Source of the DNA: an uncultured Clostridium sp.
GTDB taxonomy: Bacteria > Bacillota > Clostridia > TANB77 > CAG-508
Length of the DNA: 36,516 nucleotides
Reading direction: 5' to 3'
NCBI GenBank assembly: GCA_947062645.1
Contig: CAMSQT010000001.1
Coordinates: forward strand, 1 to 36,516
In this document: one piece after another, positions 20,011-27,970 of the stretch
Layout of the letters: every line of letters begins with the position of its first letter
How positions within the stretch are numbered: the stretch's first letter is position 1
Notes under the pieces: model-generated
What the model saw: only the letters and a program-made list of their open reading frames with translations
What the model was told of the DNA's origin: nothing
Databases searched by the model: none
Translations under genes and position numbers: made by a program

Positions 20011-20027
20011 TTTTACTTCCTCCTTCT

Positions 20028-20126
20028 GGTGTTTTTTGGGACGTGGGCAAAAAACATCGTTTTATTTTTAATATTTTTACTCTTTTCGAAATGATGTTTT
20101 TTGACCACGTCCCAAAAAACATCATT
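20028..20126. repeat. Twin-hairpin (REPIN-like) intergenic repeat between ctsR and mcsA
   Basis: Left arm GGTGTTTTTTG-GGACGTGGG-CAAAAAACATCG and right arm ATGATGTTTTTTG-ACCACGTCC-CAAAAAACATCAT are inverted copies separated by 30 nt. The ctsR stop lies in the right arm, and the mcsA RBS abuts the left arm. Confidence 0.8.
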
Positions 20127-20642: not shown

Positions 20643-20659
20643 TTTGACTTTCTTTGACC
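20643..20659 (-). promoter_or_regulatory. CtsR operator (downstream of -10)
   Basis: Minus strand GGTCAAAGAAAGTCAAA matches the tandem heptad consensus RGTCAAA-NAN-RGTCAAA. Confidence 0.8.
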
Positions 20660-20668
20660 TATAATATT

Positions 20669-20696
20669 ATTATACTGCTTTTATTTATTATTTCAA
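20669..20696 (-). promoter_or_regulatory. ctsR operon promoter
   Basis: On the minus strand: TTGAAA (20691..20696), 16 nt, TATAAT (20669..20674). Flanked by the two CtsR boxes. Confidence 0.6.
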
Positions 20697-20704
20697 AATC
20701 TTTT

Positions 20705-20721
20705 TTTGACCTTATTTGACC
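20705..20721 (-). promoter_or_regulatory. CtsR operator (upstream of -35)
   Basis: Minus strand GGTCAAATAAGGTCAAA is a perfect CtsR tandem heptad. Confidence 0.8.
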
Positions 20722-27791: not shown

Positions 27792-27970
27792 ATTATTACC
27801 TCATTTTCTAAAACAAAGCAAGATGCCACTTTTCACTCATTTTATTGTTTTAAAAAATTAATTAAAATTAGTAAGATGTGCTTTTTTATAAAAATAGACA
27901 AGCTGAAGGCGTACGTTGGTACGTCGAAGTTTGAATATTTTTATAAAAATGTGCAGATTGCTGATTTTAA

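What the first reader, a model, noticed from the sequence alone, without database searches (positions are those of the whole stretch)
20028..20126. Twin-hairpin (REPIN-like) repeat family occupying intercistronic spacers of operons
Elements at 20028..20126 (ctsR-mcsA spacer) and 31003..31134 (tpiA-gpmI spacer) each consist of two roughly 33-nt arms. Each arm is itself a 12-13-bp hairpin, (G/A)(C/T)GATGTTTTTTG-loop-CAAAAAACATC. The two arms carry complementary loops (GGGACGTGG / CCACGTCCC type), so they are inverted copies. The AT-rich spacer is 30 or 63 nt.

A half copy follows tig (79..106). In both full copies the promoter-distal arm overlaps or abuts the upstream stop codon, and the other arm ends a few nt before the downstream RBS.

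The architecture parallels REP doublets (REPINs/BIMEs) mobilised by RAYT transposases in proteobacteria. I do not recognise this sequence family. Its constant placement inside operons suggests a role in mRNA processing or stability, or in translational coupling.
Basis: partly seen in the sequence, partly recalled or inferred. Interest (0 to 1): 0.62.

Follow-up and report, generated by a model that had tools for sequence, protein, structure and literature searches.

The report
REP/REPIN hairpin repeats inside operons
These spacers hold copies of a short hairpin-forming DNA repeat, usually in inverted pairs, that sister genomes link to a domesticated tyrosine transposase gene; this is a known kind of element (REP/REPIN with RAYT), found here in low-GC gut Clostridia where I found no earlier description.

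Summary
The window holds four full arms and one truncated arm of a 31-nt palindrome, consensus GATGTTTTTTG-GGACGGGGT-CAAAAAACATC (4 matches against 0.01 expected by chance).

A stems-only scan of species genomes found the same element in about a dozen 27-32% GC gut Clostridia MAGs. I counted 174 arms, and the 9-nt loop was as conserved as the stem. All 50 two-arm clusters have the same inverted order, with a modal spacer of 42-49 nt that is A-rich on the sense strand.

Sister genomes encode a RAYT-type Y1 HUH transposase (Pfam Y1_Tnp; NCBIfam REP_Tyr_transpos 78 bits; best fold match 4ER8). Its gene is flanked by the arms. In homologues of 49-59% identity the flanking arms carry lineage-specific variants.

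The ctsR-mcsA site is filled in some relatives, empty in one (17-nt spacer) and decayed in another. At orthologous sites arms are 96.8% identical, spacers 62% (chance level) and coding flanks 86%.

This is a REP/REPIN-RAYT system: a new member of a known kind. An effect on the mRNA is plausible, because the arms are co-transcribed and a 31-bp arm-to-arm stem is predicted, but it is untested.

The parts
20093..20123 (-). Promoter-proximal arm of the ctsR-mcsA doublet. On the mRNA (-) strand it reads GATGTTTTTTG-GGACGTGGT-CAAAAAACATC (orientation A). The ctsR stop codon TGA (20122-20124) overlaps its first bases.
   Evidence: the stem extends to 20089-20124 (I3)
20059..20092 (-). Spacer of the ctsR-mcsA doublet: 34 nt, 62% A on the sense strand, no conserved sequence.
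20028..20058 (-). Promoter-distal arm. The + strand reads GGTGTTTTTTG-GGACGTGGG-CAAAAAACATC, so the mRNA carries orientation A' with the C-rich loop. It ends 4 nt before the mcsA RBS GGAGG (20019-20023).
   Evidence: it shares the loop variant T with its partner arm
31102..31132 (-). Promoter-proximal arm of the tpiA-gpmI doublet. It matches the family consensus exactly on the - strand and lies 10 nt after the tpiA stop (31143-31145).
   Evidence: extended stem 31101-31141 (I2)
31036..31101 (-). Spacer of the tpiA-gpmI doublet: 66 nt, A-rich on the sense strand. The orthologous spacer in L026 is 44 nt and only 52% identical.
31005..31035 (-). Promoter-distal arm of the tpiA-gpmI doublet. The + strand reads GATGTTTTTTG-GAACGAGGT-CAAAAAACATC, with 2 loop variants. 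It lies about 8 nt before the gpmI RBS.
74..104 (-). Truncated arm (orientation A on the - strand), 9 nt after the tig stop. Its 3' stem is replaced by the poly-A/T run at the window edge. Relatives L083 and L009 carry a full doublet here, between tig and clpP.

Best explanation
The elements are members of a REP (repetitive extragenic palindrome) family, arranged mostly as inverted doublets, that is, as REPINs.

**Shown**
- The unit is a 31-33-nt hairpin: (Y)GATGTTTTTTG-GGACGGGGT-CAAAAAACATC(R).
- It is dispersed at dozens of sites per genome in a clade of low-GC gut Clostridia.
- Two-arm clusters always have the order A...A'.
- A RAYT-type Y1 HUH tyrosine transposase gene in sister genomes is flanked by the same arms, a REPtron arrangement, and its flanking arms vary with the lineage.
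- Sites are filled, empty or decayed in different relatives.

**Inferred, by analogy with E. coli TnpA_REP and IS200/IS605**
- The RAYT binds the arm as a single-stranded DNA hairpin, reading the conserved loop and the foot.
- It cuts and rejoins DNA next to the hairpin, which over evolutionary time has seeded and maintained copies.
- Copies survive mainly between a stop codon and the next RBS, or after genes, because insertions there are tolerated.

**Further inference**
- Because the window's doublets sit inside operons, they are probably transcribed with them. In the mRNA the two arms can pair into a 31-bp or longer stem that loops out the A-rich spacer and brings the stop codon and the RBS close together.
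- This may limit harm to, or modulate, coupling and stability of the flanking cistrons.
For: **A real, multi-copy family**
- Window matches are far above chance.
- The genome scan specified the stems only. It gave 105 stretches, and 138 of 182 arms carry exactly GGACGGGGT or its complement in the unconstrained loop.
- One MAG has 46 arms in the 192 kb fetched.

**REPIN architecture**
- All 50 two-arm clusters are in the order A...A'; a single three-arm cluster adds an extra arm. Spacers are mostly 42-49 nt.
- Spacer sequence is unconserved. Bertels & Rainey describe this as typical of REPINs.
- The predicted arm-to-arm hairpins have energies of -47.1 and -63.8 kcal/mol, z-scores -8.8 and -12.2.
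- The local stem shows compensatory changes: covariation score 0.107 against 0.057 in shuffles, with 0 of 500 shuffles as high.

**Transposase**
- L027:765-1535, L041:6765-7538 and L006:86-889 match Pfam Y1_Tnp at 40-48 bits (cut-off 23). They match NCBIfam REP_Tyr_transpos at 78, 68 and 56 bits, against 18 and 22 bits on the IS200 model for the first two and no IS200 match for L006.
- H63/H65 and Y124-x3-N128-P129 are invariant.
- In the AlphaFold model (pLDDT 83.6) the best PDB match is 4ER8, TnpA_REP bound to a REP hairpin (E 1.4e-6, TM 0.71).
- The gene is flanked by arms in the order A-gene-A' in 4 of 5 lineages. Lineage-specific arm variants occur at 59, 57 and 49% protein identity.
- Synteny with tex is kept.

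**Mobility and decay**
- Empty sites exist at gatA-gatB, upstream of uppS and elsewhere.
- The ctsR-mcsA spacer is 17 nt in L117/L118 and holds a decayed remnant in L120/L121.

**REP-like distribution**
- Elements are rarer in divergent spacers: 0.31 per kb against 0.84 in co-directional and 1.11 in convergent spacers.
- One arm is translated inside uvrC. Di Nocera et al. 2013 noted REPs inside repair genes.
Against: - No RAYT gene lies in the window, and the window's own genome could not be examined. The link rests on sister MAGs of 80-90% identity.
- The NCBIfam RAYT score (78.4) is just under its equivalog cut-off (80).
- The arms lack the unpaired GT[AG]G tag of classical REPs. Their foot is GATG, and it is paired.
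- No target-site signature and no within-population excision or insertion events were seen.
- All polymorphism is between species, and most doublets sit at the same orthologous sites in four or five species, so recent mobility is not shown.
- Arms are more conserved (96.8%) than neighbouring coding DNA (85.7%). Selfish spread alone does not explain this.
- The RAYT in L027 appears frameshifted at codons 2-3.
- Nothing about RNA-level effects was measured.
Confidence: 0.82

Rival explanations
1. Host cis-regulatory RNA module, either instead of mobile DNA or as a later exaptation. The twin hairpins would be selected intercistronic signals. Candidate roles are an RNase III or RNase Y processing site, 3' and 5' protective hairpins for the two cistrons, or a coupling device that brings stop codon and RBS together.
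For: - At orthologous sites arms are 96.8% identical, against 85.7% for coding flanks and 62% for spacers.
- 29 of 33 doublets lie between co-directional genes, with one arm at the stop codon and the other 12-21 nt before the start codon.
- The spacer has more A than T on the sense strand in 29 of 29 doublets.
- A very stable 31-bp stem is predicted.
- Two loop variants are shared by both arms of a doublet.
Against: - The same site is empty in one relative and decayed in another, and those operons look intact.
- The flanking genes share no functional theme.
- Copies also occur in convergent and divergent spacers and inside uvrC.
- The family tracks a RAYT gene.
- 41 of 43 arm variants are not shared with the partner arm, so arm-to-arm pairing shows little covariation.
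- No RNA end data could be obtained.
Confidence: 0.12
2. Non-autonomous derivatives of an active IS200/IS605 insertion sequence (PATE- or MITE-like), rather than a REP/RAYT system.
For: The transposase has the Y1 HUH fold shared with IS608 and ISDra2. Hairpin ends are typical of that family.
Against: - The IS200 model scores 18-22 bits (cut-off 55), against 56-78 bits on the RAYT model.
- The Y-x3-NP motif is the class 2 (TnpA_REP) signature.
- One RAYT-like gene was seen per MAG in the stretches fetched, at a conserved position next to tex.
- No tnpB gene is present.
- The arms flank the gene in inverted orientation, not on the same strand as IS200 ends would be.
Confidence: 0.05
3. Intrinsic (possibly bidirectional) transcription terminators or attenuators.
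For: Each arm is a stable hairpin. Read in orientation A, the 3' flank is mildly T-rich.
Against: - The doublets sit inside operons.
- On the sense strand the spacer after the first arm is A-rich.
- Only 2 of 22 singlets that follow a stop codon have a U-tract.
- The stems are A/T-rich, not G/C-rich.
- The terminator scan called nothing at the arms, although the scan accepts loops of 3-8 nt only, so these 9-nt-loop hairpins could not have been called.
Confidence: 0.02
4. Operator sites for a dimeric DNA-binding regulator. CtsR is a candidate because the arm contains one GGTCAAA heptad.
For: The half-sites are perfectly palindromic. GGTCAAA occurs in the arm.
Against: - The true tandem CtsR boxes are at 20643-20659 and 20705-20721, around the ctsR promoter.
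- The arm has only one heptad.
- A conserved, asymmetric loop with fixed polarity is not expected for a symmetric operator.
- The sites lie downstream of genes, not at promoters, and are depleted from divergent spacers.
Confidence: 0.02

Closest known systems
REPIN-RAYT systems of Pseudomonas, Enterobacteria and Neisseria (Bertels & Rainey, PMC5581495)
   Same: - Two inverted REP palindromes less than 130 bp apart, with conserved ends and a variable spacer.
- Extragenic, tens to hundreds of copies per genome.
- A RAYT gene at a fixed position, flanked by REPs, with vertical persistence across species.
   Different: - The host is a low-GC uncultured gut Clostridia clade.
- The palindrome is 11-12 bp with a conserved 9-nt loop.
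- There is no GTAG tag.
- The RAYT is about 257 aa, with a C-terminal helical domain of about 110 aa.
- Most doublets lie between the stop codon and the RBS inside operons.
- Bertels et al. 2017 found strong REP association only for Group 2 and Group 3 (proteobacterial) RAYTs.
E. coli REP/BIME and TnpA_REP (RayT; PDB 4ER8)
   Same: It is the best structural match and the only PDB sequence hit. It shares the HUH and Y-x3-NP motifs, hairpin DNA repeats in alternating orientation, and a preference for co-directional and convergent spacers.
   Different: Structural-alignment identity is 13%. The E. coli protein is 165 aa and lacks the C-terminal domain. E. coli REPs carry an unpaired 5' GTAG and a bulged, G/C-rich stem.
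TIRYT / TnpA_Y1 subclass 2.1 (Di Nocera et al. 2013, PMC3733652; Quentin et al. 2018, PMC6006769)
   Same: These are long RAYT-like proteins with a C-terminal extension. Their flanking inverted repeats carry GGGGWSAS; here the arm has GGGGTCAA, 7 of 8 positions. Some TIR families are self-complementary and occur as dimers.
   Different: Quentin et al. found no REP-like hairpins next to subclass 2.1 genes, whereas here the flanks are clear hairpins and are abundant. No Pfam HTH match was found in the C-terminal domain, so membership is unresolved.
IS200/IS605 insertion sequences and their palindrome-associated derivatives
   Same: They share the Y1 HUH fold, recognition of single-stranded hairpins, and the absence of target-site duplication.
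   Different: Here the gene scores low on the IS200 model. No multi-copy, self-mobile unit was seen in the stretches fetched, and there is no tnpB.

Membership tests
REP sequences | Short (20-40 nt) imperfect palindrome able to form a hairpin | tested here: met
   31-33 nt with an 11-12 bp stem and a 9-nt loop. Compensatory changes occur at base pairs 3-31 and 1-33 of the 33-column alignment.
REP sequences | Many dispersed, mostly extragenic copies in one genome | tested here: met
   At least 46 arms in the 192 kb fetched from MAG CAMNWO01 and at least 36 in CANEEJ01; 5 arms in the 36.5-kb window. A whole-genome count was not possible.
REP sequences | Unpaired 5' tetranucleotide tag GT[AG]G (or CGTC) at the foot of the hairpin | tested here: not met
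   The foot is GATG (variants GGTG and GCTG), and it is paired. CGTC occurs only inside the loop. Quentin et al. note that some classes also lack GT[AG]G.
REP sequences | Preference for spacers between co-directional or convergent genes and avoidance of promoter (divergent) spacers | tested here: met
   0.84 and 1.11 elements per kb against 0.31 per kb in divergent spacers, using crude ORF-based gene calls.
REPIN / BIME | Two REPs in inverted orientation, less than 130 bp apart, at a preferred spacing | tested here: met
   50 of 50 two-arm clusters are in the order A...A'; about two thirds of the spacers are 42-49 nt.
REPIN / BIME | Conserved ends with a variable spacer | tested here: met
   Orthologous arms are 96.8% identical and spacers 61.6%, against a baseline of 59% for unrelated spacers.
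REPIN / BIME | The doublet folds into one long hairpin | tested here: inconclusive
   This is the predicted minimum-energy structure. However, only 2 of 43 arm variants are shared between partner arms.
REPIN / BIME | Ongoing duplication or excision within populations | not testable with these tools
   Only between-species presence, absence and decay was seen.
RAYT (TnpA_REP, class 2 TnpA_Y1) | Y1 HUH fold with the HUH motif and the Y-x3-NP motif | tested here: met
   Pfam Y1_Tnp 40-48 bits; invariant H63, H65, Y124, N128 and P129; Foldseek top hit 4ER8. NCBIfam REP_Tyr_transpos scores 78.4 bits, just under its cut-off of 80.
RAYT (TnpA_REP, class 2 TnpA_Y1) | Gene flanked by its own REP type (REPtron), with REP and RAYT co-varying | tested here: met
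   L027, L107, L109 and L111 are flanked in the order A-gene-A'; L041 is flanked A'-gene-A'. Arm variants are lineage-specific.
RAYT (TnpA_REP, class 2 TnpA_Y1) | Single copy, vertically inherited, not on plasmids or phages | tested here: inconclusive
   Synteny with tex is conserved, and no arm was found on viral contigs. Whole genomes were not available, and a divergent paralogue exists in L006.
RAYT (TnpA_REP, class 2 TnpA_Y1) | Present in the genome that carries the window | not testable with these tools
   It is not in the 36.5-kb window. Metagenomes that hold the window show only short partial matches to the L027 gene.
TIRYT / subclass 2.1 | C-terminal HTH domain (Bac_DnaA_C, HTH_23 or HTH_28) and GGGGWSAS in the flanking repeats | tested here: inconclusive
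   A helical C-terminal domain is predicted at residues 146-256. It has no Pfam HTH match. The repeat has GGGGTCAA, 7 of 8 positions.
Intrinsic terminator | G/C-rich stem followed by a U-tract on the transcribed strand | tested here: not met
   The stems are A/T-rich. 2 of 22 post-stop singlets have a U-tract. Doublet spacers are A-rich on the sense strand.

The most novel reading that the evidence does not exclude
The arms may be more than tolerated passengers. At fixed orthologous sites they are kept more faithfully than the neighbouring protein-coding DNA, while the spacer between them drifts to chance-level similarity. One arm next to the RAYT gene has even flipped its loop between two species.

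Two readings fit this and are not mutually exclusive:
- A RAYT-driven 'arm replacement' process that homogenises hairpins in place, without moving the spacer.
- Exaptation of the doublet as an intercistronic RNA module, in which a 31-bp stem places the stop codon next to the RBS and 3' and 5' protective hairpins remain after cleavage in the A-rich loop.

Either would give RAYTs, whose function is still unknown, a concrete host-level role in a Gram-positive lineage.
Probability: 0.2. Interest if true: 0.65.

Novelty: new member of a known kind. Interest (0 to 1): 0.35.

Why it matters
REP/REPIN-RAYT systems have been studied almost entirely in Proteobacteria.

- Di Nocera et al. 2013 list no Firmicutes REP families.
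- Bertels et al. 2017 found RAYTs in Clostridia but no strong REP association outside the proteobacterial groups.
- Quentin et al. 2018 found no REPs next to the long RAYT-like proteins with C-terminal domains.

This family shows a full REPtron and REPIN population in low-GC gut Clostridia, with a long-form RAYT. It extends the known range of the system and offers a second, very different hairpin for testing how RAYTs recognise their targets.

There are two practical consequences.
- The arms break short-read assemblies of these gut MAGs. ctsR and RAYT contigs end at the arms.
- The arms add spurious C-termini or internal peptides to annotated genes such as gatA and uvrC.

Tried and rejected
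- **RNA evidence.** Two run searches and one lay of four putative RNA runs gave only fragmentary Logan contigs at low depth. These contigs also break at 31-nt repeats, so nothing can be said about processing or termination.
- **RAYT in the window's own organism.** Laying contigs of four metagenomes that hold the window on the L027 RAYT locus showed the arms at high depth but only 40-80-nt partial matches in the gene.
- **Arm-to-arm covariation.** Only 2 shared variants against 41 unshared, which is too few to support the long hairpin.
- **Rfam.** Nothing at gathering threshold. At E<=1 there was only a spurious mir-166 match (30 bits against a threshold of 60) on the long hairpin.
- **Other searches.** No tRNA or tmRNA. 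No exact arm on viral contigs.
- **C-terminal domain of the RAYT.** Pfam found no significant family.
- **CtsR operator idea.** Rejected, because the true boxes are at 20643-20721.
- **Terminator idea.** Rejected.
- **Target-site duplication.** None was evident at four filled-versus-empty comparisons.
- **Theme among flanking genes.** None: clpP, obg, gatB, ychF, murG, prfA, hydrogenase, spoIID, gpr.

Full report

The window carries four full arms of a palindromic repeat, at 20028-20058, 20093-20123, 31005-31035 and 31102-31132. A truncated arm lies at 74-104. The pattern GATGTTTTTTG-N9-CAAAAAACATC with up to 3 mismatches gives 4 matches against 0.01 expected from shuffles. The loop plus 3' stem gives 5 matches against 0.02 expected.

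Each arm has an 11-bp stem and a 9-nt loop. Within a pair the loops are reverse complements, so the arms are inverted copies.

Pfam confirms the gene names: tig, ctsR, mcsA, mcsB, tpiA, gpmI and pgk. All these genes are on the - strand. The other arm ends 4 nt before the mcsA GGAGG.

**2. A repeat family, not a locus-specific structure**

I scanned one genome per species with the two stems specified and the loop left free. This returned 105 stretches. Most come from about a dozen 27-32% GC gut MAGs labelled 'uncultured Clostridium' or 'Clostridia'.

- Although the loop was unconstrained, 138 of 182 arms carry exactly GGACGGGGT or its complement.
- Conservation drops sharply outside a 31-33-nt core, (Y)GATGTTTTTTGGGACGGGGTCAAAAAACATC(R).
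- The window is not identical to any of these genomes. The best matches are 90% (CANRXN01) and 80-86% (CAMNWO01, CANEEJ01).
- Runs that hold the window are mouse-gut metagenomes.
- One MAG has at least 46 arms in the 192 kb fetched.

**3. Architecture**

Of 122 clusters, 50 are two-arm clusters and all 50 have the order A...A'. The reverse order and direct orders never occur as doublets, and a single three-arm cluster adds one extra arm. About two thirds of the spacers are 42-49 nt.

Spacers share no sequence. On the sense strand they have more A than T in 29 of 29 cases (mean A 0.55, T 0.24).

29 of 33 doublets with both neighbours called lie between co-directional genes. The first arm sits -2 to about +20 nt from the stop codon. 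The second sits 12-21 nt before the start codon, so the RBS follows it directly.

Singlets next to a stop codon mostly have the same polarity as the first arm of a doublet, 20 against 5.

Elements are rarer per kb in divergent spacers (0.31) than in co-directional (0.84) or convergent (1.11) spacers. The flanking genes have no common theme: clpP, obg, gatB, ychF, murG, prfA, hydrogenase, spoIID and gpr.

**4. Structure**

As RNA, both window doublets fold best into one long hairpin in which arm pairs with arm. The energies are -47.1 and -63.8 kcal/mol, with z-scores of -8.8 and -12.2.

Evidence for that long-range pairing from variation is thin. Two loop variants are shared between partner arms and 41 are not.

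The local hairpin is better supported. At the second base pair of the core (alignment columns 3-31) the types are A-U 37, G-U 13, C-G 4 and G-C 4. The covariation score is 0.107 against 0.057 in shuffles, with 0 of 500 shuffles as high, and at most 0.045 in slid controls.

**5. The transposase**

I searched the six-frame ORFs of the fetched loci with E. coli RayT, taken from MG1655. This found three genes: L027:765-1535 (CAMNWO01), L041:6765-7538 (JAAVZN01) and a divergent paralogue at L006:86-889.

- They match Pfam Y1_Tnp at 40-48 bits (cut-off 23).
- They match NCBIfam REP_Tyr_transpos at 78, 68 and 56 bits (cut-off 80). On the IS200 model the first two score 18 and 22 bits, and L006 has no match.
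- An alignment of 32 homologues keeps H63 and H65 (the HUH motif) and Y124-x3-N128-P129 invariant. The latter is the class 2 TnpA_REP signature given by Quentin et al. 2018.
- The AlphaFold model (pLDDT 83.6) matches 4ER8 best. That entry is E. coli TnpA_REP bound to a REP hairpin (E 1.4e-6, TM 0.71). IS608 and ISDra2 transposases follow.
- 4ER8 is also the only PDB hit by sequence.
- The protein is about 257 aa. It has a helical C-terminal domain that Pfam does not name.

**6. REPtron arrangement and co-variation**

In L027 the gene lies between an arm 63 nt downstream and an arm 72 nt upstream, in the order A-gene-A'. It sits between a dCMP-deaminase gene and tex. L041 is orthologous, but its upstream arm has the opposite loop orientation and a compensated G-C pair.

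The protein family is large, with 1693 proteins at E<=1e-5. Many of them sit on contigs of about 1 kb, as expected if flanking repeats break assemblies.

Homologues of 59, 57 and 49% identity (L107, L109, L111) are each flanked in the order A-gene-A' by lineage-specific arm variants:
- GGGTG...GGGGACGGGGC...CACCC
- GGTG...GGGGACGGAGG...CACC
- GCTG...GGGACGGGGTC...CAGC

This is the REP/RAYT co-variation expected of a REPtron.

**7. Insertion polymorphism and conservation**

Most doublets occupy the same orthologous sites in four or five species. Clean empty sites nevertheless exist:
- gatA-gatB is filled in three MAGs and empty in two. In the filled genomes gatA reads through the arm to a new C-terminus.
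- The site upstream of uppS is filled in one MAG and empty in another, and there are further cases.

At the finding's own site, the ctsR-mcsA spacer takes four states:
- an intact doublet in the window, L098, L071 and L114;
- a 17-nt spacer, TAA-TAAAGGAGG, in L117/L118;
- a decayed remnant in L120/L121;
- something else in L119.

At 22 orthologous doublet pairs, arms are 96.8% identical. Spacers are 61.6% identical, against a baseline of 59% for unrelated spacers, and flanking, mostly coding DNA is 85.7% identical.

**8. Comparison with what is known**

Bertels & Rainey define a REPIN as two inverted REPs less than 130 bp apart with conserved ends and a 'highly variable' spacer, duplicated by a single-copy, vertically inherited RAYT. 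The family here fits that definition.

It differs from classical REPs in lacking the unpaired GT[AG]G tag. Its RAYT is a long form. Quentin et al. reported no REPs next to the long subclass 2.1 proteins (the TIRYTs), whose flanking repeats carry GGGGWSAS. The arm here contains GGGGTCAA, so a link to that subclass is possible but unresolved.

Di Nocera et al. 2013 list no Firmicutes REP families. Bertels et al. 2017 note Group 1 RAYTs in Clostridia with only weak repeat association. I found no paper describing this family.

**9. How it most likely works**

Shown: the hairpin repeat, its doublet organisation, its link to a RAYT-type gene, and site polymorphism and decay.

Inferred from E. coli TnpA_REP and IS200/IS605 biology: the enzyme recognises the arm as a single-stranded DNA hairpin, and cutting and rejoining at its foot has seeded and maintained copies.

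Inferred from position: the doublets are co-transcribed, and arm-to-arm pairing would bring the stop codon and the RBS together. This could explain why doublets are tolerated inside operons and could affect coupling or stability.

From my own knowledge, not checked here, E. coli REPs can stabilise upstream mRNA and, when close to a stop codon, reduce expression of the upstream gene.

The very high conservation of arms at fixed sites is not explained by selfish spread alone. It points either to in-place homogenisation by the RAYT or to a host-level role. Neither was tested.

**10. Rivals**

- Terminators are excluded. The spacer following the first arm is A-rich on the sense strand, only 2 of 22 post-stop singlets have a U-tract, and the stems are A/T-rich.
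- CtsR operators are excluded. The true boxes are at 20643-20659 and 20705-20721.
- IS200-type derivatives are unlikely.
- A purely host-encoded regulatory RNA does not fit the empty and decayed sites or the RAYT link. Exaptation remains open.

**11. Verdict**

This is a new member of a known kind and is of moderate interest.

Noticed in passing
window 27852-27980; also L026 3556-3659 and L061 6509-6634: A second, unrelated repeat: a long imperfect palindrome of about 129 nt (53-nt arms, 81% complementary, centre GAAGGCGTACGTTGGTACGTCGAAG). Copies of 76-82% identity lie at other sites in two sister MAGs; in L026 the copy sits in the pgk-tpiA spacer, which in the window holds the NUDIX gene instead. 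It looks like a MITE-like family.
   Followed up: partly
window 15593-18041 (clpC) and 29443-30983 (gpmI); window 1-75: clpC and gpmI are each split into two or more ORFs, and the first ~75 nt of the window are poly-T/A runs that replace half of an arm. This points either to homopolymer errors in the assembly or to real pseudogenes.
   Followed up: no
L021 7084-7114 and L057 6985-7015: An arm lies in frame inside uvrC and is translated as DVFWDGVKKH in a linker region, in two species. Di Nocera et al. 2013 reported REPs inside repair genes.
   Followed up: partly
L024, L033 and L101 (gatA-gatB junction) versus L072 and L010: Where the doublet is present, gatA reads through the first arm and ends in the spacer, giving the new C-terminus ...PMFFGTGSKNITKE*. 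In the empty-site genomes gatA ends 3-20 nt before gatB.
   Followed up: partly
L027 1608-1638 versus L041 6671-6701: The arm upstream of the RAYT gene has the opposite loop orientation in two orthologous loci. The L041 copy also carries a compensated G-C pair. This suggests replacement or inversion of an arm in place.
   Followed up: partly
L027 about 1520-1545: Relative to L041, the CAMNWO01 RAYT gene is out of frame with its TTG start, through a 1-nt difference in an A/T run at codons 2-3. The cause could be a frameshift, an assembly error or an alternative start.
   Followed up: no
L006 86-889 and 900-960: A divergent RAYT-like paralogue (28% identity) is followed by two direct copies of CCTGTCCCAAAsTTGCCATTTA. 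Similar GTCCC(C)AAA motifs occur in the pgk-tpiA spacer of L117. This may be a second repeat type with its own enzyme.
   Followed up: no
window 31911-32447: A NUDIX hydrolase gene sits between pgk and tpiA in the window. It is absent from the orthologous CANEEJ01 locus L026, which has the 129-nt palindrome there instead.
   Followed up: no
window 31000-31122 (run X26): One low-depth contig from a putative RNA run joins 31000 to 31122 through 25 other letters. The result is a single variant arm (loop ...ACTTAGGT) in place of the doublet, which may be a strain-level doublet/singlet polymorphism.
   Followed up: no
window 20643-20659, 20705-20721 and 20669-20696: Two perfect CtsR operators (GGTCAAAGAAAGTCAAA and GGTCAAATAAGGTCAAA) bracket a TTGAAA-16-TATAAT promoter upstream of ctsR. 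This is ordinary autoregulation.
   Followed up: yes
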